Shown: positions 3,072 through 49,728 of the stretch, piece after piece
Layout: each line of letters opens with the position of its first letter
Numbering within the stretch: the first letter of the stretch is position 1
Assembly: GCA_009788085.1 (NCBI GenBank)
Contig: WQSB01000002.1
Coordinates: 1-57,371 of the forward strand
From: Defluviitaleaceae bacterium
GTDB lineage: Bacteria; Bacillota; Clostridia; Lachnospirales; WQUN01
Reading direction: 5' to 3'
Length of the DNA stretch: 57,371 nt
Program-made: the position numbers and the translations under genes
The notes under the pieces: model-generated
What the model was told of the DNA's origin: nothing
Seen by the model: only the letters and a program-made list of their open reading frames with translations
Databases searched by the model: none

Positions 3072-3293
3072 AAAAGCCGAAGGGTTTAGTTTGGAGCTCA
3101 TGAGGCGTGGGAATGCTCGCGCTAACGCTTGCCATGCGATGATTGAGACTGCTCGGGAAGTGCCTGTGCAGGTCTTGCTCCGCAAGCCCGGCGATGGCAC
3201 TAACCCTCGCCTGTCTCACTAATCGCACGACTTCGCTAGTCGCACTCGTCATTCCCACGCCTCATGAGCTCCAAACTAAGCCCTTCGGCTTTT
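3072..3293. repeat. Long palindromic element: 44-bp terminal inverted repeats around a 134-nt partly self-complementary core (MITE-like or structured RNA)
   Basis: Segment 3072-3115 is the reverse complement of 3250-3293 at 43/44 positions, and the one mismatch would be a G-U pair. Inner segments such as GCGATGATTGAGAC/GTCTCACTAATCGC and AGTGCC/GGCACT also pair. Confidence 0.8.
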
Positions 3294-3331
3294 TGCCGGA
3301 TAGGGTGAGGGTGGGCGGTAGGAGAGATAGT

Positions 3332-4852
3332 ATGTATATTGTAAAAGGGCATGAAATGCGCGAATTAGAAAACCGCGCCATGAAAAAATATGCTATTCCG
3401 TCTGTTTTGCTGATGGAAAATGCCGCGCTACAAGTGGTTAAGAACGGGCTTAGGCTGTTGAATGATAGGTCCGCCGGGAATGTAACAGTGGTTTGCGGCA
3501 GCGGCAACAACGGCGGAGACGGACTGGCATCGGCGCGGCTTTTTTATACAAAGGGGCACAATGTGCGGGTGGCGTACATTGGGGATATATCAAAAGCCCA
3601 AGGGGACGTTTTAATAAATTTGCGGATGGTTCAGCAAATGGGCATTCCCATCGAGGCCGACCCGGAAGCTTTGCCGGAGCTAGTAGCCGAATCCCATTTG
3701 GTGGTGGACGCCCTTCTGGGCATAGGCCTGTCGGGCCCGCTTCGCCCGAATTATGCCCGGGCCATAAACGCCATAAATACAGCGACGGTGCCGGTTTTAT
3801 CCGTTGACATCCCCTCTGGCGTGGACGCCGACACGGGAAAAGTCATGGATACCGCGGTTCACGCCCATACAACAGTAACCTTCGGACTGGCGAAAATCGG
3901 GCTGATGGCATATCCCGGCGCGGAATACGCCGGGCAGGTAATAATCGAAGATATTTCCCTTCCAGCGGAGGCGTTGAGCCCACCAGCGGGAGATCATTGG
4001 TTGCAAGCTTTGTGCCAGCCCGACATCGCGGCTTTGCTGCCGAAAAGGCCGGCCCGCTCCAACAAAGGCACCTTCGGTCGCATGTGCGTAATAGCAGGGT
4101 GCCGGGAAATGCCCGGGGCGGCAGTGCTGTGCTGCAAAGCCGCATACAAAGCGGGGGCGGGGTTGGTACACGCCTGCGTGGTTTGGGATGTTGCAAAAGT
4201 GATTCAGTCCTACGCTCACGAGGTCATTACAACAATTTTACCCGAAATTTTGCCCAATTCGGAACCCGACACCGAAGCCGTAGTCCCGCCGCAAGCCGAT
4301 GTAATCGCCATAGGGCCGGGCCTGGGGCGCAATCCCGAAAGCTTTGTTTTCGTGCGGAAAATAATGAACCAAGCCTCTGTACCACTGGTTATTGACGCGG
4401 ACGGCCTAATGGCCATTGCCGATGATATAACCGCCCTTAAATCCATAAAAGTGCCCTGCGTAATCACACCACACCCTGGGGAAATGGCCGCCCTAACCAA
4501 GCTTACGACCCCGGAGGTCACGGGCAATCTAATTGCCATCGCTCAAGAATTTGCCAAAACCCATGGCATAGTGACACTATTAAAAGACGCCCGCACGGTA
4601 ATTGCCTCACCGGACGGACGCACTTTTATAAATCTTACAGGAACACCGGCCCTTGCAAAGGCCGGAACCGGCGATGTCCTAACCGGCGTAATTGCCGCCT
4701 TAATCGCCCAGGGGCTGGCTGCTTTTGACGCGGCGGTGCTGGCTGCATATGTACACGGCTTTGCAGGCGAACTGGCCGCAAAGTCGCTTTCTGTTTATGG
4801 GGTAAATGCTAGCGATTTATTGGAATACCTGCCCTATGCTTTTATGCTGTAG
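3332..4852 (+). CDS. nnr: Bifunctional NAD(P)H-hydrate repair enzyme (epimerase + ADP-dependent dehydratase)
   Basis: The N-terminal YjeF_N-like segment reads MENAALQVV...VVCGSGNNGGDGL. The C-terminal carbohydrate-kinase domain reads GPGLG...TPHPGEMA...AKAGTGDVLTG. SD GGAGAG lies 5 nt upstream of ATG 3332. Confidence 0.9.
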   Translation: MYIVKGHEMRELENRAMKKYAIPSVLLMENAALQVVKNGLRLLNDRSAGNVTVVCGSGNNGGDGLASARLFYTKGHNVRVAYIGDISKAQGDVLINLRMVQQMGIPIEADPEALPELVAESHLVVDALLGIGLSGPLRPNYARAINAINTATVPVLSVDIPSGVDADTGKVMDTAVHAHTTVTFGLAKIGLMAYPGAEYAGQVIIEDISLPAEALSPPAGDHWLQALCQPDIAALLPKRPARSNKGTFGRMCVIAGCREMPGAAVLCCKAAYKAGAGLVHACVVWDVAKVIQSYAHEVITTILPEILPNSEPDTEAVVPPQADVIAIGPGLGRNPESFVFVRKIMNQASVPLVIDADGLMAIADDITALKSIKVPCVITPHPGEMAALTKLTTPEVTGNLIAIAQEFAKTHGIVTLLKDARTVIASPDGRTFINLTGTPALAKAGTGDVLTGVIAALIAQGLAAFDAAVLAAYVHGFAGELAAKSLSVYGVNASDLLEYLPYAFML

Positions 4853-5697
4853 GTATACGGAATACCCATCTGTTGCAGGCGTCCTATTCTTTCGTGTGTA
4901 TTTGGATGGGTTGAGTAAAGGGCTTTTAAAAAAGATTTCTGCGGGCTGTTTCTGCCAGTAGCATCTAACGCCTTGGCCAGCTGAACGCCATACCCTAGTT
5001 GAACGGCATAAGCATCAGCAGCATATTCATTTTCCCGCATCGACCATGATAGGAACAATATACAAAATTTTGTCCACAGCCAAATGATACCTCCAATCAC
5101 TATTCCTACAGCGGCTTTGACCCATGACCGGTTTCTGATTGCGGATATGACGGACCCTGTTGCTATAAGTACAGCAATCCCTCTCAAAATAAGGATAAAC
5201 ACAGTAATGAAAATATTGCCCCCTCCTATAAGCAGTTGTATTTCCGTATGACGATGTGCTAAATGTGCTATTTCATGTGATAGAAGCCCCAAGATTATTT
5301 CATCCGGCAGACGCATCAAACCTTCGGTAATGCAAATAGTCTTTCTGCCGATAGCATAGGCCTTAGCATCCGATGTGTATACTATTCTCAATTCAATCGT
5401 ATCAGCTAGGCCGGGCGTTTTCATTTTCGCCGTCCTATACACAGTTTCAAACAACGGTTCGATTCGTTTTTGCATATCAATCCTTTTTATCTTTTTTGCC
5501 CCAGCAAAAAAGCATAGCACCCATTCTCCAAACGGCGAAAAGGCCGCAAAAATTGACGCGATGTAAATTGCAAATACCACAGCCAAAACTTGAATGCCGC
5601 CACCTGAGAAAAATATTAGGACGGTCATTATATTAAGAAGGAAGAAAACGATTACACCTATGCCGGATTTTTTGAAGAGGTTTTTTGCTATATTCAT
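4834..5697 (-). CDS. M48-family (HtpX-like) integral-membrane zinc metalloprotease
   Basis: The protein has the HEIAHLAHRH (HExxH) motif, several TM segments and a C-terminal STHPNTHERI. Its ATG overlaps the upstream stop (ATGA). Confidence 0.8.
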   Translation of the reverse strand: MNIAKNLFKKSGIGVIVFFLLNIMTVLIFFSGGGIQVLAVVFAIYIASIFAAFSPFGEWVLCFFAGAKKIKRIDMQKRIEPLFETVYRTAKMKTPGLADTIELRIVYTSDAKAYAIGRKTICITEGLMRLPDEIILGLLSHEIAHLAHRHTEIQLLIGGGNIFITVFILILRGIAVLIATGSVISAIRNRSWVKAAVGIVIGGIIWLWTKFCILFLSWSMRENEYAADAYAVQLGYGVQLAKALDATGRNSPQKSFLKALYSTHPNTHERIGRLQQMGIPYTYSIKA

Positions 5698-6386
5698 TTG
5701 TCTTCACCAAATTCTGCCACAAAGTTTATGTATGTTATTGCGTCTCTTGCCATTTCCCGCGTTGCCCCTTCGCTAATGAGCCTGTCAATTAAATTATGCT
5801 TTGTAAAAATATCATTGCCCGCACGGCTTTCTATTAATAAAGCAAGGGCATTAAGCTCAAAAAGCGAAACACTCAACCACCGAATAATACCCCTGCACTC
5901 ATAATCATTTCGCAACAAATCAGACGCAAGTGCCTTAAAGGTACGCGAGCATAAAAACGCTTGGGGATAATCACGATGCATGGTTTGAAGCATACATATA
6001 ATTTTTTCAGAATGTCCATTGTCTACAACGAAAGTATCTTCATCCGGTTCGGGCTGATGGCCCTGTTTAATACAGGTGCTGTCCTCTACATATTTGGGTT
6101 GTCCGCTTCGCCTCTGTAGTAGCCTCATTGCTTCCAACATAGGCCCCGTATCCGGATAACCAAGCTCCGCCGCTTTTTCAAGCCAGTATACGGCACTCGC
6201 ATAATCATCTTCTTTAAGGTAACAATGACTTAGAATAGAATAATAATCGCCCATAGCACATTGGGCGTGAATATCGCCATTATCAGCCATTTGGTTCAGC
6301 TCATTAATGGAATATCTACGCCCTGTGCTAACATCGCAACCAAAAAGCTCCTTATTGTTATTGCTCATCTTTATTTCGATTTTCAT
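5694..6386 (-). CDS. Sel1-like repeat protein with uncharacterised C-terminal domain
   Basis: The N-terminus NGDIHAQCAMGDYY...ASAVYWLEKAAELGYPD is Sel1/TPR-like. The remaining ~130 aa were not recognised. The start is uncertain because there is no clear SD. Confidence 0.55.
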   Translation of the reverse strand: MKIEIKMSNNNKELFGCDVSTGRRYSINELNQMADNGDIHAQCAMGDYYSILSHCYLKEDDYASAVYWLEKAAELGYPDTGPMLEAMRLLQRRSGQPKYVEDSTCIKQGHQPEPDEDTFVVDNGHSEKIICMLQTMHRDYPQAFLCSRTFKALASDLLRNDYECRGIIRWLSVSLFELNALALLIESRAGNDIFTKHNLIDRLISEGATREMARDAITYINFVAEFGEDK

Positions 6387-6398
6387 AAAATATAAATA

Positions 6399-7808
6399 TT
6401 AAAGCTTTCCACGCAAGGTGCTTTTTAGCTTTTCAAACTCTTCCTTCAATTCGGGATTGTTTTCAATTTTCCGCCTTAAATTTGCTTCTTCTACTGATGC
6501 GGAATTATATTTTGATGATACACTATTGCGCCTGTTACTTTGGACGTCGGTTGTATTAATAAGATAGTACCCTGGAACAGCACATGCACCTGAAATGAGA
6601 AGAGAGATTACAATGACCCCACTTCCTCCCGAGAGGGCACCGATAAATGAGAGTAACATAAGGACTGCGATACCTAAGAGCATGAATCCAATGATACGCT
6701 TAATAGTTCTTAGCGCGGGATATTGCTCTTTACTGGCTTCGGCAGCTTTCTCATTAACAATCAGCACTTCTTCTTTTCGTTCTTCATCTTTTTTTCGTTC
6801 CTCATCTTTTTTGCGCTCTTCATCTTTACGGCGTTGTGCATCTTGTGAGAGTTGTTCTTCGCTTGGAAATGCATCTCGTATCAAGTGACTAATGTCCGCC
6901 CCATTCTTTTTCCACCGAGAACCGAGAGCTTTTATTATTTCATCTACAATGCGCGGCTCGGTTGCTTTTGGGCCCTTGGAAATTACCATCCCTAAGAAAG
7001 AGCTAAATTTCTCCTTTGCAGTTGCCAACTCTTGCTCGTGCAACTTCTCCATTGCCGTAATATGCATCGCGGGAAGGTGCGGGGGCGGATTTTTTTTGAA
7101 CAGGGCATGAGCTTTCTCTGCATATCCGATTCGCTTGGCAAGGGCAATAGCGACATTCACATCCGATTTGAAATAAGAATCTACTTGGCCACGGTCATCA
7201 AGACGCGAGTGAGCTTGATATGCAAGACTAATCCCGTTGTACTGCATGTATTCCAACGGGTTTTCAGATTCACTTTCCGCACGATGAACAGCTTCTGTTA
7301 TTAAACGAAAACCTTCTGCGGGGTTAGAAAACTTCACAAGTCCCGGCAATTTACTTATGTGCATGGTATCGGGTGAACCACAATATATTGTGCCAAGTTC
7401 AGCCATCGCTATAATATTTTTGTGGTCATAGACCAGCTTCTTGAAGCATTCAATAACGGTTGCCTCATTATCGCCCTCAATGCGGTTAGCGTACAAGTCC
7501 ATCAGTCCGAAGCGTGCGTGGGAATCCCCATTTTCCATAGCCTTTACTAACCAACGCACCGCTTCTTTAGGATTGTCCTCTATACATACAGGAAAATCAG
7601 AATCATAAAAAGCAGCAAACTCACGCTGGGCAACGCAATGACTTTGTTTTGCCGCTTTCTCCAGCCAGTCAAATGCTTTCTTTGGGTCTTGGTCAAAACC
7701 ATCTTCTCCATACCTGTATGCCCAGCCCAATTCAAATTGGCTTTCCACGTCGTTCTGTTCAGCACGGGTAATTAACTCTTGTTTTTGAGTTTCACTTAAC
7801 ATACGCAC
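6399..7808 (-). CDS. Sel1-like repeat protein with charged KDEER repeat and C-terminal double TM anchor
   Basis: Repeated Sel1 signatures are present (ESQFELGWAYRYG...KKAFDWLEKAAKQ; AVRWLVKAMENGD). These are followed by RRKDEERKKDEERKKDEERKEE and then two hydrophobic helices. SD GGGAGG precedes the ATG. Confidence 0.7.
   Translation of the reverse strand: MRMLSETQKQELITRAEQNDVESQFELGWAYRYGEDGFDQDPKKAFDWLEKAAKQSHCVAQREFAAFYDSDFPVCIEDNPKEAVRWLVKAMENGDSHARFGLMDLYANRIEGDNEATVIECFKKLVYDHKNIIAMAELGTIYCGSPDTMHISKLPGLVKFSNPAEGFRLITEAVHRAESESENPLEYMQYNGISLAYQAHSRLDDRGQVDSYFKSDVNVAIALAKRIGYAEKAHALFKKNPPPHLPAMHITAMEKLHEQELATAKEKFSSFLGMVISKGPKATEPRIVDEIIKALGSRWKKNGADISHLIRDAFPSEEQLSQDAQRRKDEERKKDEERKKDEERKEEVLIVNEKAAEASKEQYPALRTIKRIIGFMLLGIAVLMLLSFIGALSGGSGVIVISLLISGACAVPGYYLINTTDVQSNRRNSVSSKYNSASVEEANLRRKIENNPELKEEFEKLKSTLRGKL
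6781..6834. repeat. 3 x 18-bp in-frame tandem repeat (encodes RKKDEE units) inside CDS 6399-7808
   Basis: The units are TCTTCATCTTTTTTTCGT, TCCTCATCTTTTTTGCGC and TCTTCATCTTTACGGCGT on the + strand. Confidence 0.8.
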
Positions 7809-7830
7809 CTCCCTGTACGGTTATAAAATT

Positions 7831-8214
7831 TTATAGCGCGTCCCGAATAAGCTGACGAACCTCTTTGATGTGGTCAAAGCAGTTGTTACACCTTTTAATC
7901 ATCATAGCGATGCGTTGTTCTTGAGAGTTCTGCTTCTGCAACAATTGTAGAGCATCAAGCCATTGTTCAGCTTTTTGGGTGAGAGCAGGAAGGAATTCAC
8001 CTTCTTGTTCCCGGCGATAATTTTCCATGCTTGCACCTTTTCGCCCCCGACTATAATCGTCTATAGCATTCAGACGGTCTATGGATTTCACTCTGTCTAT
8101 CCCTTCTTTGTACTTACTGATACTAAAGGGCTGTCCGTCAGTAAAAAACAGATGCTCCATATTGGCTATTTCACCTTCAAGAACATTCAGTCTTTCGTTT
8201 ACAGCACTATCCAT
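7831..8214 (-). CDS. Hypothetical helical protein (127 aa)
   Basis: The ORF has SD GGGAGGA 8 nt upstream. It is packed 22 nt from the next gene. I recognised no family. Confidence 0.6.
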   Translation of the reverse strand: MDSAVNERLNVLEGEIANMEHLFFTDGQPFSISKYKEGIDRVKSIDRLNAIDDYSRGRKGASMENYRREQEGEFLPALTQKAEQWLDALQLLQKQNSQEQRIAMMIKRCNNCFDHIKEVRQLIRDAL

Positions 8215-8252
8215 TTATACATCCTCCCACAAAATATAATTTGATGCCTCGC

Positions 8253-8459
8253 TTAAAGCTCGTCTATAACTTTTTTCAACAAAGCAACTGTATGTTCATT
8301 CGCCTTGTATATTGCCATATTAACAAGACTTGCTGGTTCCATGTCTTTGCCAAAAGATTTAACCCAATTCATCCTGACTTCAGACATTTCATTTTGAACT
8401 CCAGACATAAGTTCATCTGCGAGTTTATCAATTGCATCATGTATTTTGTTTTTGTTCAT
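8253..8459 (-). CDS. Small hypothetical protein (68 aa)
   Basis: The internal ATG (MNKNKIHD...) has SD GAAGGGGG 8 nt upstream. The listed start at 8477 lacks an SD. Confidence 0.55.
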   Translation of the reverse strand: MNKNKIHDAIDKLADELMSGVQNEMSEVRMNWVKSFGKDMEPASLVNMAIYKANEHTVALLKKVIDEL

Positions 8460-8764
8460 GTTGGACACCCCCTTCATTTTTTAAATGCTGATGCACTATA
8501 ACATAGACGAGTGTAGCTCTACATTTCAAAACCATTTACGCTACCAGAATATGACCTATTGTCCGCGTTGAACTCACCAACCTTACTGCCGCCAGAAGTG
8601 TAAACGAAAAAGTTTCACTTAAACATAAGAACCTCCACGTATTTCCAGCCACCGTCGCCCTACAAAGCTTTCTATGTAGGACAATTCGTTCGACATGGTA
8701 AGTAAATCGCTGTTTTTTGTTGCTTTTAAACTAAGAACCAGCAAACTCACAGGCTGCCGCTCGT

Positions 8765-8986
8765 TTAATCCATTATTTCTGACCACTTTCGCGCACAACC
8801 CGAACAACCATCATTCTTAACTAGCCTCATCACCATAGCTAATGCCATTTGTTGCCCTTGTGGGATACCACCTGTTTCACGCAAACTTTTTTTAACCAAA
8901 TCAAGGGCTGCTCCGACATTGCCATTTGCTAAACCTCTACATGGGTTACATAAAGTGAAAGCGCGAATTTCGTCAAAAAAGTCCAT
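8765..8986 (-). CDS. Small Cys4 protein (73 aa; CNPC...CSGC)
   Basis: ATG at 8986 (MDFFDEI...) is preceded by AAGGAG 8 nt upstream. That SD sits directly after the stop of the 52-aa ORF. Confidence 0.6.
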   Translation of the reverse strand: MDFFDEIRAFTLCNPCRGLANGNVGAALDLVKKSLRETGGIPQGQQMALAMVMRLVKNDGCSGCARKWSEIMD

Positions 8987-8999
8987 AATTTCATCTCCT

Positions 9000-9158
9000 T
9001 TACAGCCTTGGGCTGTTTGATTTCTTTGCTTCTTCGTAATTGGGGCATTTTTGCCAGTTGCTGCTTGATTCACAGTTGTTTTGCCGTCTGTAATCGTCTT
9101 GCTTTGTGTTGTAAAGCTTACATTCGTGGCCGAGTTCATTGTAATATGGACATTTCAT
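9000..9158 (-). CDS. Small Cys-rich protein (52 aa), absent from the ORF track
   Basis: The sequence is MKCPYYNELGHECKLYNTKQDDYRRQNNCESSSNWQKCPNYEEAKKSNSPRL. SD AAGGTGA lies 5 nt upstream of the ATG. Its stop abuts the SD of the next gene. Confidence 0.55.
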   Translation of the reverse strand: MKCPYYNELGHECKLYNTKQDDYRRQNNCESSSNWQKCPNYEEAKKSNSPRL

Positions 9159-9225
9159 TAATTTCACCTTGCTTGCTCAATATAACAAATCCCTCCAATT
9201 ATGCTACAGCTGGATGTTTACTTAA

Positions 9226-9552
9226 TTAACGTATGTTGTGTAGTCTCTGCAACAGTTCCGTCTTTTTTGTATACTCCTCAGCCGCATGTATCATTTTTTC
9301 CAATTGCGCTTTTACTCCATTTTGTTCATTTATTAAATTATTGAAATTAAGGCTTGAACGCTTCTCTTGCGGAGTATCCCTGTACTTTTGTTCGATAGTA
9401 GATAGAATATCTTCCATCTGTTTCAAATGAGCCTTAACCTCTTGAACTACGTCCCGTTCCGTGCCCACATCTATATACTTTTTTGCAAGCCGTATGTTCT
9501 CATTAAGGATGTCCCTTATACCCTTTAAATCGTGGTTTTCTTGTTTATCCAT
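9226..9552 (-). CDS. Hypothetical coiled-coil protein (about 108 aa; start uncertain, ORF open to 9639)
   Basis: The ORF is charged and helical. ATG at 9552 (MDKQEN...) has GGAG 9 nt upstream, while the listed TTG at 9639 has no SD. Confidence 0.55.
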   Translation of the reverse strand: MDKQENHDLKGIRDILNENIRLAKKYIDVGTERDVVQEVKAHLKQMEDILSTIEQKYRDTPQEKRSSLNFNNLINEQNGVKAQLEKMIHAAEEYTKKTELLQRLHNIR

Positions 9553-9837
9553 TCTAATCCACTCCATTTCTTTTTTTATTTTTTCCTCAATTTTCAAGTT
9601 GGCACTTTCAAAGCCTTTGACGAGGATTCTTTTTAGCAATTTTGCTCTTTTCTGAAAGTATTAACTGTAATGTTTTTAAGACTTAGTGTAGTGCCTCTCA
9701 CCACCATTATCAGACGTCACTATTAACTCACTCCCGGCAATCTCATATTCCTCCATAATAATACATTTTATTTCATCCCTTTGGATGTCTTTGCATCGAA
9801 CAAAATATTAGATTTGTTCATGTTATTTTTGTCGATT

Positions 9838-9882
9838 TCATTTGTTAAACTGCCGCTGTAATCGCGGTGGCGGGTTGCTCAT
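9838..9882 (-). CDS. Possible 14-codon leader ORF (MSNPPPRLQRQFNK)
   Basis: Strong SD GAGGGGAGG lies 5 nt upstream of the ATG, immediately after IR-L. There is no other support. Confidence 0.25.
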   Translation of the reverse strand: MSNPPPRLQRQFNK

Positions 9883-9896
9883 GTGCACCTCCCCTC

Positions 9897-9924
9897 ATGC
9901 AACAAAATATCTAGAAAGTTGCAT
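9897..9924. repeat. Left inverted repeat (IR-L) of candidate invertible switch
   Basis: ATGCAACAAAATATCTAGAAAGTTGCAT is complementary at 25/28 positions to IR-R at 10039-10066. Confidence 0.75.
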
Positions 9925-9949
9925 CCTGTAAAATTCTACAATTCCGGAC

Positions 9950-9982
9950 AAAAAAAGAGGCGAAGCACATTCGTCTTCGCCT
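9950..9982 (-). terminator. Intrinsic terminator inside the invertible segment, functional only for leftward (minus-strand) transcription in this orientation
   Basis: The minus strand reads AGGCGAAG-ACGAATGTG-CTTCGCCT followed by C TTTTTTT. On the + strand the same hairpin is followed by TGGAGC. Confidence 0.7.
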
Positions 9983-10038
9983 TGGAGCTATGTCGTCATA
10001 GGGGAATTGCCAAGTATTTTCGCAGCTTTGCGACATCA

Positions 10039-10066
10039 ATGCAACTTTCTAGATAAAATGTTGCAT
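10039..10066. repeat. Right inverted repeat (IR-R) of candidate invertible switch
   Basis: ATGCAACTTTCTAGATAAAATGTTGCAT is the partner of IR-L. The two repeats flank a 114-bp segment. Confidence 0.75.
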
Positions 10067-10076
10067 CAACATACTT

Positions 10077-10105
10077 ATTATATTAGGAGGATTTTCCAAT
10101 GTCAA
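10077..10105 (-). promoter_or_regulatory. Consensus sigma-A-type promoter firing leftward into IR-R
   Basis: The minus strand reads TTGACA (10105-10100), a 17-nt spacer, then TATAAT (10082-10077). It overlaps the SD and start of the recombinase on the opposite strand. Confidence 0.65.
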
Positions 10106-10665
10106 CTACCCAACCCATAAGAAATTTAGACCACGTCCGTGCCCTTGCAAATTACTATATGGACAAAGGTGAACTTCGAAATTACAGACTTATCGTATTA
10201 AGCCTCCACACAGCGTTGCGGGTGTCCGACTTGCTTTCCCTGCGCTGGTCGGACGTGTATGACTTCAAATTAAACCGCCCCTGCAAAGAGTTCACCCTAA
10301 CAGAGCAAAAAACCGGCAAAAGCAAAACCGTCGCAATCAATCACCATGCGGCAAAAGCATTAAAAAAAGGTGCAGATACAGCCGCACCCTACCATTTTCT
10401 ATTTGCCAATGCGCATTCCGGCAAAGCCTTAGTCCGCGCCCAAGCCTACCGCATAATTCGCAATGCTGGGGAAGCCCTGGAACTCCCTGGGCGCATATCC
10501 TGTCATTCGCTCCGAAAAACCTTTGGATACCATGCATGGAAAAAGGGAATTTCCCCAGCCGTGATTATGGAAATATACAACCATTCTAGCCTAAGCCAAA
10601 CCCGCCGTTACCTGGGCATAAATCAAGATGACCTCAACACCGTTTACATGAGTATGGCGTTTTAA
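10099..10665 (+). CDS. Small tyrosine recombinase (catalytic domain only, FimB/FimE-sized, 188 aa)
   Basis: Catalytic signatures are present: ALRVSDL (Arg), CHSLRKTF (HxxR), HAW and RRYLG (Tyr). SD AGGAGG lies 8 nt upstream. Confidence 0.85.
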   Translation: MSTTQPIRNLDHVRALANYYMDKGELRNYRLIVLSLHTALRVSDLLSLRWSDVYDFKLNRPCKEFTLTEQKTGKSKTVAINHHAAKALKKGADTAAPYHFLFANAHSGKALVRAQAYRIIRNAGEALELPGRISCHSLRKTFGYHAWKKGISPAVIMEIYNHSSLSQTRRYLGINQDDLNTVYMSMAF

Positions 10666-10668
10666 AGC

Positions 10669-10695
10669 AAAAAAAACCGCTAACGCGGTTTTTTG
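10669..10695. terminator. Bidirectional intrinsic terminator between recombinase and atpC
   Basis: The sequence is AAAAAAAACCGCTAACGCGGTTTTTTG, a stem flanked by an A-run and a T-run. Confidence 0.7.
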
Positions 10696-10703
10696 ATTGA
10701 TTT

Positions 10704-11129
10704 TCATGCTTTGCTCTTACCAGTCAATTCCAGCTGAATCTTACAACGCCTTGAATCATTCCGATAAGTGTCTTTTTCAAGTAAGTTTTCAGTTTCGTTT
10801 ATCTTGCGCTCGATTTCTTTTAAGTCTTCGCTGACCTTTTTAACGTCTATGTCCTCCGGCCATTGGGCAGAATCGGACAAAACGGTCACGATGTTGTTGC
10901 TGACATGTGCCACTCCGCCCATTACCGCCATGTGGGACTCTGTGTCGCCGTCGAAAACGCGCAACAGTCCTAAATCCAGCACCATGGAGCAGGGCACCCG
11001 GCCGGGCAAAATGCCCATCTCGCCCGTTGTGCAGCGCAGAATTACCATGTCAACATCACGCTTATACTTATAAGGGCTTTTGTCTGTGGCTTGTGTCGGT
11101 GCGATTACGCGCAGTTCGAGCTTACTCAT
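10704..11129 (-). CDS. atpC: F1 ATP synthase epsilon subunit
   Basis: It is last in the atp operon, and LRVIAP...GEMGILPGRVP...GGVAHVSNNIVTVL is typical of epsilon. Confidence 0.9.
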   Translation of the reverse strand: MSKLELRVIAPTQATDKSPYKYKRDVDMVILRCTTGEMGILPGRVPCSMVLDLGLLRVFDGDTESHMAVMGGVAHVSNNIVTVLSDSAQWPEDIDVKKVSEDLKEIERKINETENLLEKDTYRNDSRRCKIQLELTGKSKA

Positions 11130-49638: not shown

Positions 49639-49728
49639 TATTAAAGCTCCTTTGAAGTTTGGGTTGACAATATCTTAGATTAAGTCATTATAGTATTAAA
49701 ATCGTATTATGAAAAGGAAGTTTTTCTT

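What the first reader, a model, noticed from the sequence alone, without database searches (positions are those of the whole stretch)
9897..10105. Candidate invertible terminator switch (cwpV/fim-like) between a consensus promoter and a tightly packed minus-strand operon (eight genes plus a leader ORF), adjacent to a 188-aa tyrosine recombinase
Seen in sequence: 28-bp inverted repeats ATGCAACAAAATATCTAGAAAGTTGCAT (9897-9924) and ATGCAACTTTCTAGATAAAATGTTGCAT (10039-10066) are complementary at 25/28 positions and flank a 114-bp segment. On the minus strand a textbook promoter, TTGACA-17 nt-TATAAT (10105-10077), fires straight into IR-R. Inside the segment, in the assembled orientation, a leftward transcript meets an 8-bp GC-rich stem (9958-9965 / 9975-9982) followed by C plus seven U, which is an intrinsic terminator. 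If the segment were flipped, the same hairpin would be followed by UGGAGC with no U tract and preceded by an A-run, so read-through would be expected. Immediately to the right is a catalytic-domain-only tyrosine recombinase of FimB/FimE size. Its SD and ATG overlap the promoter on the opposite strand. Established knowledge: E. coli fimS and C. difficile cwpV/RecV switches use short IRs plus a nearby small tyrosine recombinase, and cwpV works by an orientation-dependent terminator. Inference: expression of the island at 4834-9882 is phase-variable, and this assembly captured the OFF state.
Basis: partly seen in the sequence, partly recalled or inferred. Interest (0 to 1): 0.85.

Follow-up and report, generated by a model that had tools for sequence, protein, structure and literature searches.

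The report
Flippable terminator switch with own recombinase
A 114-bp DNA segment carrying a one-way transcription stop signal sits between two recombination sites next to a small dedicated recombinase, and relatives carry such segments in both orientations, so it is very probably a heritable ON/OFF switch for the neighbouring gene island, caught here in the blocking (OFF or low) position.

Summary
In detail: 28-bp inverted repeats (25/28), a 114-bp segment, a perfect outward promoter, a one-way intrinsic terminator, and a 188-aa catalytic-domain-only tyrosine recombinase.

The arrangement is not a chance one. At least 70 fetched loci with a related recombinase have the same compact module. Two dif-like 28-bp sites (11-6-11, ATG[T/C]AAC…GTT[A/G]CAT) start about 200 and 57 nt upstream of the recombinase ATG and usually flank 105-120 bp. 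Site centres differ between loci but match within a locus. About 60% of segments carry a one-way terminator. The gene beyond the far repeat nearly always points away and encodes flagellin, surface proteases, adhesin-like proteins, pilus proteins or regulators.

Homologous segments occur in opposite orientations. In L095/L113 the recombinase is collinear but the repeat-bounded piece is reversed, with arms swapped as a central crossover predicts. L082 and L056 carry window-type segments flipped.

However, all 15 loci of the window's own promoter-bearing clade, and all five assemblies of this strain, show the blocking orientation, so flipping at this locus is inferred, not shown.

The mechanism resembles C. 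difficile cwpV and the layout resembles E. coli fim. It is best filed as a new variant of a known kind.

The parts
10099..10665 (+). Small tyrosine recombinase (188 aa), catalytic domain only. It is the presumed invertase of the adjacent switch.
   Evidence: Pfam PF00589, E 9e-26, residues 15-174. R41, K71/K74, H136, R139, H162 and Y171 are invariant among 26 homologues. The only PDB match is the XerA catalytic domain, residues 117-268 of 292. XerA/C/D and FimB/E-type invertase models all score far below their cut-offs.
10077..10105 (-). Fixed outward promoter P_out: TTGACA (10105-10100), 17 nt, TATAAT (10082-10077). It overlaps the recombinase start codon and SD on the other strand.
   Evidence: 12/12 match and the only perfect match in the window. 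It is conserved at 11-12/12 in 15 distinct loci of the clade, including L059, where it lies in the 5' UTR and does not overlap the ATG.
10039..10066 (.). IR-R, a dif-like 28-bp core site: outer arm GTTGCAT side, centre TAGATA/TATCTA, inner arm ATGCAAC side. It contains TAAAAT (10054-10059, + strand), a possible -10 for the recombinase.
   Evidence: Homologues have an equivalent site starting about 57 nt upstream of the ATG. The 11-6-11 layout and the arm resemble dif (PMC5357621, PMC2731167).
9925..10038 (.). Invertible segment, 114 bp.
   Evidence: It is bounded by the IRs. A segment of 105-120 bp is typical of the family. A profile of this segment type hits L082 and L056 on the opposite strand.
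9950..9982 (-). Unidirectional intrinsic terminator inside the segment: stem 9982-9975 / 9965-9958, 9-nt loop, then C and T7 (9957-9950). It stops leftward transcription only in the assembled orientation.
   Evidence: Fold at -16.8 kcal/mol, z = -2.0. Terminator-like at about +114 from the P_out start in the native orientation, and none after in-silico flipping. Equivalent hairpin plus T-run in 33 of 54 non-redundant family loci.
9897..9924 (.). IR-L, the partner 28-bp core site. Its outer arm differs from IR-R at three positions (AAA vs TTT).
   Evidence: The same AAA/TTT outer-arm asymmetry is seen in L005, L165 and L167-L169.
9927..9932 (-). TTTACA, a -35-like hexamer at the terminator-distal end of the segment (tentative). 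It pairs with TATTTT in IR-L now, and would pair with TAAAAT in IR-R, in front of the recombinase, after flipping.
   Evidence: Family-wide enrichment is only weak.
9795..9848 (-). Conserved leader element downstream of the switch: promoter-like TTAACA-17-TAACAT (9848..9820), followed by a palindrome/hairpin with loop ATCTAATATT (9795-9836). Function unknown.
   Evidence: (I10). It is present in clade members whose cargo genes are unrelated, and a second copy in the window lies near 49640-49690.
4834..9756 (-). Cargo island read away from the switch: M48/HtpX-like membrane protease, two Sel1-repeat proteins and several small proteins with no family match. About 40% GC against about 52% in the flanks.
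   Evidence: No PADLOC match.
10671..10694 (.). Bidirectional terminator between the recombinase and atpC. It insulates the module from the ATP synthase operon.

Best explanation
The locus is a compact, self-contained phase-variation cassette.

The 188-aa recombinase acts on two dif-like 28-bp core sites, each made of 11-bp arms around a 6-bp crossover region. The sites lie in inverted orientation, and recombination between them flips the 114-bp segment they enclose.

A strong fixed promoter overlaps the recombinase start on the opposite strand and fires through IR-R toward the divergent island at 4834-9756.

In the assembled orientation, the segment presents a hairpin plus U7 about 114 nt downstream of the transcription start, so most transcripts should end there. 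This is the OFF or low state.

After inversion, the same hairpin is preceded by the A-run and not followed by U. Transcription then reads through into the island. This is the ON state.

Inversion probably also changes the -35 element in front of the recombinase: GCGACA-18-TAAAAT now, TTTACA-17-TAAAAT when flipped. That would make more recombinase in the ON state and bias the population toward OFF.

Shown here: the sequence features, their conservation, co-variation of the sites, and opposite orientations among homologous loci. Inferred: that inversion happens at this locus, promoter and terminator activity, and the OFF bias.
For: 1. All features verified and beyond chance.

2. Conserved module. 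61 fetched loci (54 non-redundant) have paired G[TC]AAC-N14-GTT[AG]C sites starting about 200 and 57 nt upstream of a homologous recombinase. Eleven more were fetched later.

3. Site co-variation. The inverted match between the two sites exceeds the direct match in 53 of 54 loci, with one tie, while the centres differ between loci. L173-L175 changed the arm sequence on both sites together.

4. Opposite orientations.
- L095 vs L113: the recombinase plus right flank is collinear at 81% identity. IR-L, segment and IR-R match only in reverse, at 84%. The inner arms are swapped as a crossover in the central 6 bp predicts.
- L082 and L056 carry window-type segments flipped: flipped identity beats same-orientation identity in 19/19 and 18/19 comparisons, and the nhmmer hit in L082 lies on the opposite strand.
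- Further opposite pairs appear.

5. A one-way terminator is the commonest payload: 28 point away from the recombinase, 5 toward it and 21 have none detected.

6. In 38 of 45 loci the first ORF beyond IR-L points away from the switch. Cargo includes flagellin, S8 subtilases, BspA-type LRR proteins, a TadZ-like protein, a sigma factor, and LytTR and HD-GYP regulators. These are classic phase-variable functions.

7. In-silico flip: a terminator at +114 in the native orientation only.

8. No Rfam family in the leader.

9. The mechanism has a precedent in cwpV (PMC2784873).
Against: - No flipped copy of this locus was found. Five near-identical assemblies and all 15 distinct loci of the promoter-bearing clade have the terminator in the blocking orientation. 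A static promoter-terminator unit would give the same picture.
- Three close relatives (L165, L168, L169) have variant inner arms, so some copies may be locked.
- The clean opposite-orientation pair comes from a different clade, with recombinases 53-57% identical to the window's.
- A conserved promoter-like or operator-like element lies between the switch and the first cargo gene. A weak hybrid promoter, TTTACA-17-TATTTT, lies downstream of the terminator. The island may therefore be transcribed without passing through the switch.
- Promoter and terminator activity are consensus predictions only.
- 21 of 54 family segments show no terminator by my scan.
Confidence: 0.72

Rival explanations
1. 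The unit is static in this clade. The consensus promoter and the terminator define a short, constitutive RNA of about 115 nt, or a conditional attenuator. The inverted repeats are relics of an ancestral switch that no longer flips here.
For: All 15 distinct clade loci and 5 near-identical assemblies show one orientation. Inner arms are variant in L165, L168 and L169. Parts of the segment sequence are well conserved within the clade (TGATGTCGCAAAGC[C/T]GCGAAAA[T/C]AC in WIN, L165 and L169; L167 differs).
Against: In the window itself all four arms are canonical and the repeats match at 25/28. The recombinase keeps all catalytic residues. Window-type segments occur flipped in L082 and L056. No Rfam family matches. 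An OFF-biased switch, like cwpV with about 5% of cells ON (PMC2784873), also gives uniform assemblies.
Confidence: 0.15
2. Promoter swap is the main output, not terminator gating. The segment carries a mobile -35 hexamer that pairs with -10 boxes embedded in the outer arms. It drives the island in the present orientation and the recombinase in the other. The terminator only insulates this hybrid promoter.
For: TTTACA-17-TATTTT faces left now, and TTTACA-17-TAAAAT would face the recombinase after flipping. The three IR mismatches lie exactly in this -10 position, and the same asymmetry recurs in relatives. A -35-like hexamer is somewhat enriched at that end of the segment.
Against: The enrichment is weak (p about 0.03, relatedness not corrected). 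The leftward hybrid promoter is only 9/12 with a poor -10. This model does not explain why a 12/12 outward promoter is conserved in 15 loci. The two models are compatible, and in both the flipped state gives the higher island expression.
Confidence: 0.08
3. The two 28-mers are operators for a dimeric repressor. Each is itself a partial palindrome, and the two loop or regulate the divergent promoters. No recombination is involved.
For: Each 28-mer has dyad symmetry, ATGCAAC...GTTGCAT, and the pair brackets the promoter region.
Against: The asymmetric centres are kept in inverted, not direct, register in 53 of 54 loci. A tyrosine recombinase gene is always adjacent. The enclosed DNA is found inverted between homologous loci, with arm exchange. 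No DNA-binding regulator is encoded in the module.
Confidence: 0.03
4. The 170-bp IR-flanked unit is a miniature transposable element (Correia/MITE-like), or the attachment sites of a mobile cassette, and is not a switch.
For: The island has lower GC than its flanks. Cargo differs between loci. Toxin-antitoxin genes often lie nearby.
Against: The window has only one pair of sites, with none at the far island edge. The distance to the recombinase ATG is fixed across the family. There is no target-site duplication at the IR flanks.
Confidence: 0.02

Closest known systems
C. difficile cwpV switch (Cdi1) with RecV (PMC2784873)
   Same: The promoter lies outside the invertible region. A short IR-flanked segment sits in the 5' leader. 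An intrinsic terminator is present only in one orientation. A tyrosine recombinase flips it, the host is a Clostridia-class bacterium, and the OFF state predominates.
   Different: In cwpV the terminator forms at the LIR junction, while here it lies wholly inside the segment. The cwpV switch has 21-bp IRs around 195 bp, against 28-bp dif-like sites around 114 bp here. RecV is encoded far away and serves several switches, while here the recombinase is adjacent, apparently dedicated, and overlaps the promoter. Homology to RecV could not be tested.
E. coli fimS with FimB/FimE
   Same: A small tyrosine recombinase of about 190-200 aa is encoded next to the switch. The recombinase aligns full-length to the FimB/E-type invertase models. 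Recombinase expression may depend on orientation, which would bias the switch toward OFF (fimE-like, inferred).
   Different: fimS carries the promoter inside the element, while here the strong promoter is outside and the payload is a terminator. The NCBIfam scores of 49 and 40 bits fall far below the cut-offs of 222 and 221, so it is not a family member. The IR type also differs: fimS has 9-bp IRs around 314 bp (from memory).
Xer/dif systems, especially single-recombinase modules with an adjacent site (XerS/difSL, XerH/difH, XerA) (PMC5357621, PMC2731167)
   Same: The site is 28 bp with two 11-bp arms and a 6-bp centre. The arms (for example TTATGTTACAT) almost match the XerD arm of dif (TTATGTTAAAT). 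The best protein matches are XerA, XerC and XerD. The gene lies next to its site.
   Different: The recombinase has 188 aa and lacks the N-terminal core-binding domain. There are two sites in inverted orientation around a regulatory payload. Several copies occur per genome. The output is inversion, not dimer resolution.
Gut 'invertons' catalogued by read mapping, e.g. inverton group 139 with invertase group 35 in Clostridia (PMC11892184)
   Same: These are IR-flanked intergenic invertons in Clostridia, with an adjacent tyrosine recombinase that is itself not regulated by the inverton, and flipping is verified by reads.
   Different: Identity with this family is untested, because the IR motif is only in a figure. 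The examples cited there have spacers of 206-228 bp. No terminator payload was described; that paper names terminators as future work.
Synthetic 'transcriptor' logic (asymmetric terminator flanked by recombinase sites; Bonnet et al., Science 2013, from memory)
   Same: A one-way terminator is flipped by a recombinase to gate RNA polymerase flow from a fixed promoter.
   Different: That device is engineered and uses serine integrases with unidirectional att sites. This one is natural and uses a tyrosine recombinase, which is presumably reversible.

Membership tests
Tyrosine recombinase superfamily (Pfam PF00589) | Catalytic domain with the R-K-H-R-H/W-Y residues | tested here: met
   PF00589 at 91 bits against a cut-off of 27. 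R41, K71/K74, H136, R139, H162 and Y171 are invariant in 26 homologues. Aligned to XerA motifs LRVS.L, H.LR..F and HS.LS.T..Y.
cwpV-type terminator inversion switch | Promoter and transcription start lie outside (upstream of) the invertible region | tested here: met
   The 12/12 promoter at 10105..10077 lies outside IR-R. This is a prediction only; there is no transcript data.
cwpV-type terminator inversion switch | Intrinsic terminator present in one orientation only | tested here: met
   Hairpin of -13.5 kcal/mol plus U7 at +114 in the native orientation, and none after in-silico inversion. 33 of 54 family loci carry one-way terminators.
cwpV-type terminator inversion switch | Both orientations coexist in a population (demonstrated inversion) | not testable with these tools
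   No reads were available. Five assemblies of the same strain show one orientation. Indirect support comes from homologous loci in opposite orientations.
cwpV-type terminator inversion switch | Inversion catalysed by RecV (CD1167), encoded elsewhere in the genome | tested here: not met
   Here the recombinase is encoded 32 bp from IR-R. Sequence relation to RecV was not tested, because no RecV sequence was accessible.
FimB/FimE invertases with fimS | Recombinase scores as a member of the FimB/FimE subfamily | tested here: not met
   NF007371 scores 49 bits against a cut-off of 222, and NF007370 scores 40 against 221.
FimB/FimE invertases with fimS | Promoter carried inside the invertible element | tested here: not met
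   No promoter of 10/12 or better lies inside the segment. Only a -35-like hexamer sits at one end.
Xer/dif | 28-bp site with 11-bp arms and a 6-bp central region | tested here: met
   The site geometry and the crossover position inferred from the L095/L113 arm exchange fit. The arm is similar to dif (PMC2731167, PMC5357621).
Xer/dif | Two-domain recombinase of about 300 aa scoring as XerC/XerD/XerA/XerS | tested here: not met
   188 aa, with scores of 23-77 bits against cut-offs of 220-335. Only the catalytic domain aligns.
Xer/dif | Single site per replicon, used for dimer resolution | tested here: not met
   The two sites are inverted and 142 bp apart. Several module copies occur per genome, for example three contigs of MAG Emb289P1bin48.
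Integron platform | attI plus an array of attC-bounded cassettes downstream of an outward promoter | tested here: not met
   No further site copies exist in the island or elsewhere in the window. The integron integrase model scores 26 bits against a cut-off of 265.
Known RNA leader (riboswitch, attenuator or sRNA) | Match to an Rfam covariance model | tested here: not met
   No hit at E <= 1 in 9000-10900 except a chance isrK match at the atpC terminator.

The most novel reading that the evidence does not exclude
This is one copy of a widespread, portable 'natural transcriptor' cassette. Its parts are:

- a minimal Xer-derived recombinase that has lost its core-binding domain;
- a pair of dif-like sites whose arms co-evolve with the enzyme;
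- an invertible segment of about 115 bp carrying a one-way terminator, and possibly a mobile -35 that feeds back on recombinase expression;
- in one clade, a consensus outward promoter built into the recombinase start codon, plus a conserved leader element.

The cassette has been placed in front of many unrelated surface, motility and regulatory genes in termite-gut and other gut Clostridia and in Synergistales, giving each its own private ON/OFF switch.
Probability: 0.45. Interest if true: 0.7.

Novelty: new variant of a known kind. Interest (0 to 1): 0.6.

Why it matters
Terminator-flipping switches are known from essentially one studied case, cwpV. Inverton surveys have concentrated on promoters.

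If this family works as inferred, gating a fixed promoter with an invertible terminator is a common, modular strategy in uncultured gut Firmicutes and Synergistales. In that design each switch has a private recombinase of minimal size.

That would help annotate phase-variable flagellins, adhesins, proteases and regulators in metagenomes. It would explain orientation-dependent mis-assemblies.

It would also offer a set of very small (188-aa) recombinases with short 28-bp sites and apparently divergent specificities, such as ATGTAAC, ATGCAAC and ATGTTCC arms, for synthetic biology.

Finally, it raises the question of how a Xer-like enzyme without a core-binding domain recognises dif-like arms.

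Tried and rejected
1. I looked for the flipped state in assemblies that encode the identical recombinase and in the closest relatives P0002, P0003, P0005, P0006, P0009, P0010 and P0014. All are in the same orientation.

3. Rfam gave no leader RNA family. PADLOC gave no defence-system match for any island protein. NCBIfam gave no specific name beyond HtpX-like and Sel1.

4. The loose site motif alone is not enriched in the window: 5 matches with up to 1 mismatch against 5.65 expected. Significance rests on the exact inverted 17-mer and on family conservation.

5. I tried to tie the family to 'inverton group 139' of PMC11892184. Its IR motif is only in a figure, so this is left as an untested lead.

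6. The relation to RecV could not be tested, because no sequence was accessible. The flgB IR, AAGTT(A/G)CTAT..., shares only GTTAC with these sites (PMC5386303), which is too little to count.

7. The 'leader peptide' idea (MSNPPPRLQRQFNK) is rejected as unsupported, because the ORF is not conserved.

8. The idea of a self-contained promoter inside the segment (TAAAAT box about 17 nt from the inner arm) was considered from the alignment. I did not pursue it, because the -35 would be the poor TT[G/A]CAT of the arm.
Full report
**1. Observation**

- The arms 9897-9924 and 10039-10066 are 28 nt long, 25/28 complementary, and 114 bp apart.
- The exact 17-mer TATCTAGAAAGTTGCAT occurs in the 57-kb window only as this inverted pair. 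With up to three mismatches, 0.11 matches are expected by chance.
- On the minus strand, TTGACA-17-TATAAT (10105..10077) is a 12/12 match. It is the only perfect one in the window. With up to one mismatch there are 3 matches against 0.37 expected.
- Inside the segment, the stem 9958-9965 / 9975-9982 is followed on the minus strand by C plus seven T. It folds at -13.5 to -16.8 kcal/mol.
- The gene at 10099-10665 encodes a 188-aa protein that matches only the Pfam Phage_integrase domain. In the PDB it matches only the catalytic domain of XerA, residues 117-268 of 292. The N-terminal core-binding domain really is absent.
- Its ATG overlaps the -35 hexamer, and its Shine-Dalgarno sequence lies in the promoter spacer on the opposite strand.

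Two minor corrections apply.

- Public gene calls list seven genes in the island, and the gaps reach about 290 bp.
- The 14-codon 'leader ORF' (9882..9838) is not conserved as an ORF in the nearest relative.

**2. A conserved module**

The recombinase belongs to a large family of proteins of about 188-205 aa (4060 proteins at E <= 1e-10). The family is found mostly in termite-gut and other gut Clostridia (Defluviitaleaceae, Oscillospiraceae, Family XIII, Lachnospiraceae) and in some Synergistales.

Of the 165 sequences compared (the window plus 164 loci), 61 (54 non-redundant) have two G[TC]AAC-N14-GTT[AG]C sites starting about 200 and about 57 nt upstream of the recombinase ATG. Most of these pairs flank 105-120 bp. 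Eleven more such loci were found among closer relatives and in L082.

The 14-nt centres differ from locus to locus. Within a locus, however, they match in inverted register better than in direct register in 53 of 54 cases, with one tie. L173-L175 have changed the arm sequence (ATGTTCC or ATGTCCC ... GGAACAT) on both sites together.

This is the behaviour expected of recombination sites that co-evolve with a dedicated enzyme. It is not the behaviour of operators or chance palindromes.

Each 28-mer has the layout of a dif-type core site, with two 11-bp arms around a 6-bp centre (PMC5357621). Family arms such as TTATGTTACAT nearly equal the XerD arm of E. coli dif, TTATGTTAAAT (PMC2731167). The best-scoring curated protein models are XerA, XerC and XerD, followed by the FimB/FimE-type invertases. 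All score far below their cut-offs.

**3. Evidence that the segment inverts**

*L095 vs L113.* The cleanest case is the pair L095/L113, from two Synergistales genomes. The recombinase gene and right flank are collinear at 81% identity. IR-L, the segment and IR-R match only as a reverse complement, at 84%. The left flanks are unrelated.

The inner arms are exchanged and the outer arms stay in place, exactly as a crossover in the central TCTCAA would produce.

*L082 and L056.* A profile built from the window-type inner segment, without the repeats, hits L082 on the opposite strand next to a complete pair of sites (3282-3451, also a 114-bp segment). It hits L056 more weakly, also on the opposite strand. 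In pairwise tests, the flipped alignment beats the same-orientation alignment in 19/19 comparisons for L082 and 18/19 for L056.

Other opposite pairs appear, for example L009 vs L102 or L057, and L021 or L030 vs L103.

**4. What the segment carries and what it controls**

*Terminators.* A thermodynamic scan finds a one-way hairpin plus T-run in 33 of 54 non-redundant segments. In 28 it points away from the recombinase, as in the window, and in 5 it points toward it.

*Neighbouring genes.* In 38 of 45 loci with enough flank, the first ORF beyond IR-L starts within about 5-150 bp and is read away from the switch.

*Cargo.* The cargo is diverse and typical of phase variation:

- flagellin;
- S8 subtilases with Big_2 domains;
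- BspA-type LRR proteins;
- a TadZ-like pilus protein;
- an ECF-type sigma factor;
- LytTR and HD-GYP response regulators;
- a TIR-RCC1 protein.

*The window's island.* It encodes an M48/HtpX-like protease, two Sel1-repeat proteins and several small proteins with no family match. It has no match to known defence systems. Its GC content is about 40%, against about 52% in the flanks.

**5. Mechanism at this locus**

Simulating the leftward transcript from about 10070 gives a terminator-like site at +114 in the assembled orientation. After inverting 9925-10038 in silico there is none. The assembled state should therefore block the consensus promoter, and the flipped state should let it read into the island.

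The outward promoter is a clade feature. Fifteen distinct loci (WIN, L005-L008, L085, L059, L165, L167-L170, L173-L175) have TTGACA-17/18-TAT(A/T)(A/C/T)T at 11-12/12. In L059 it lies in the 5' UTR and does not overlap the start codon.

A second, tentative effect concerns the recombinase itself.

- Inversion would replace GCGACA-18-TAAAAT with TTTACA-17-TAAAAT in front of the recombinase. The -10 lies in the outer arm of IR-R.
- The three mismatches between the repeats fall exactly there, and the same asymmetry recurs in relatives.
- This would give more recombinase in the ON state and hence an OFF bias.
- The family-wide signal for the mobile -35 is weak, so this remains inference.

**6. Evidence against, and limits**

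- No flipped copy of this locus exists in the five assemblies that carry the identical recombinase.
- All 15 clade loci are in the blocking orientation. That fits a strongly OFF-biased switch: cwpV is ON in about 5% of cells, and its published genome is OFF (PMC2784873). It fits a static promoter-terminator unit equally well.
- Three close relatives have variant inner arms.
- Downstream of IR-L, the clade shares a promoter-like pair of boxes followed by a palindrome or hairpin with the loop TCTAAGATTT. In the window these are TTAACA-17-TAACAT at 9848..9820 and the palindrome at 9795-9836. The same motif sits behind a good TATAAT in front of an unrelated gene near 49640-49690.
- If that element is a real promoter or operator, the island has transcription that bypasses the switch.
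- No transcript or read data were available.

**7. Rivals**

- *Operators.* Disfavoured by the inverted co-variation of the centres and by the arm exchange.
- *MITE or cassette boundary.* Disfavoured because the pair is single in the window, there is no site at the far island edge, the distance to the recombinase is fixed, and there is no target duplication.
- *Known riboswitch or attenuator.* No Rfam family matches.
- *Static unit.* This is the main surviving rival, at about 0.15.

**8. Comparison and novelty**

Functionally, the switch works like cwpV: a fixed promoter and an orientation-dependent terminator. In layout it resembles fim, with a small recombinase next to the switch. Its sites and enzyme look Xer/dif-derived.

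It fails membership in three families.

- FimB/FimE: by score, and because the promoter is not internal.
- Xer: only one domain is present, and the two sites are inverted.
- The RecV system: the recombinase here acts in cis, and homology to RecV is untested.

Read-based surveys have already catalogued Clostridia invertons with an adjacent tyrosine recombinase, namely group 139 with invertase group 35 in PMC11892184. That may be the same family, but this could not be checked. Those authors did not describe terminator payloads.

I therefore file this as a new variant of a known kind.

- Confidence in the overall explanation: about 0.72.
- Confidence that these are recombination sites of the adjacent enzyme: about 0.85-0.9.
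- Confidence that terminator gating is the main output and that this assembly is OFF or low: about 0.65-0.7.

Noticed in passing
window 9795-9848 (minus strand); also L005, L007, L008, L165, L167-L170, L173, L174: A conserved leader element lies 60-115 nt beyond IR-L although the cargo genes differ. It has promoter-like boxes TTA(A/T/C)CA-17-CACTAT/TAACAT, then a palindrome/hairpin (T)GACAA...TTGTC(A) with conserved loop TCTAAGATTT and co-varying stem, then an AAAGGAGG-type SD. No Rfam match.
   Followed up: partly
window ~49640-49690 (minus strand): A second copy of the same motif, TTTTCA-17-TATAAT GAC TTAATCTAAGATAT TGTC, then CAAAGGAG, then the ATG (49638) of a 123-aa ORF. This gene is unrelated to the switch, which suggests a genome-wide promoter/operator or 5' stem-loop motif.
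   Followed up: partly
window 9838-9882 (minus strand): The short ORF MSNPPPRLQRQFNK, with a strong SD directly after IR-L, contains a PPP stalling motif. It is not conserved as an ORF in L165, although the nucleotides AACCCGCCAC are conserved.
   Followed up: partly
L170/L171 2798-2825 and 2941-2968: Both sites are the identical perfect palindrome ATGTAACATTTTATATAAAATGTTACAT. The centre therefore gives no polarity, and recombination could in principle delete the segment as well as invert it.
   Followed up: no
L173, L174, L175 (switch regions upstream of the recombinase): The arm sequence has changed to ATGTTCC or ATGTCCC ... GGAACAT on both repeats together. This implies altered recombinase specificity within a 66-67% identical clade.
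   Followed up: no
L165, L168, L169 (switch regions): The inner arms are non-canonical (ATGATAC, ATGCTAC, GGAGCAT, GTTGTAT), while the IR-L outer arm stays canonical and the IR-R outer arm varies (GTGAGAC in L165, GTGCAAC in L168, TTGCAAC in L169). These may be locked or decaying switches.
   Followed up: no
L165 1183-1921, L169 2497-3241, L170 3605-4254, L173 3599-4153, L082 ~3530-3870: Toxin-antitoxin-like genes (nucleotidyltransferase with HEPN or a substrate-binding partner, PIN, ParE, RelE-like) lie directly beside the recombinase in several loci. In L082 they separate the switch from the recombinase. This suggests the modules sit in variable, island-like regions.
   Followed up: no
window 4834-9756 against flanks 3143-4852 (nnr/YjeF-type gene) and 10704 onward (atpC and the ATP synthase operon): An island of about 40% GC is inserted between a housekeeping nnr-like gene and the end of the ATP synthase operon, which have about 52% GC. 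It encodes an M48 protease, two Sel1-repeat proteins and small Cys-rich or coiled-coil-like proteins of unknown role.
   Followed up: partly
L009 and L015, first gene beyond IR-L: In these loci the first ORF beyond IR-L begins with an N-terminus that I recognised by eye as IS200/IS605 OrfB/TnpB-like (not scanned against Pfam). Such an insertion could have displaced the original cargo.
   Followed up: no
Lachnospiraceae loci such as L140, L080, L125, L144 (single site 50-130 nt upstream of the recombinase): More distant human- and mouse-gut homologues show only one GCAAC-N15-GTTGC site near the gene within the 700 bp searched. The partner may lie further away, giving a larger invertible region, or the single site may be autoregulatory.
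   Followed up: no
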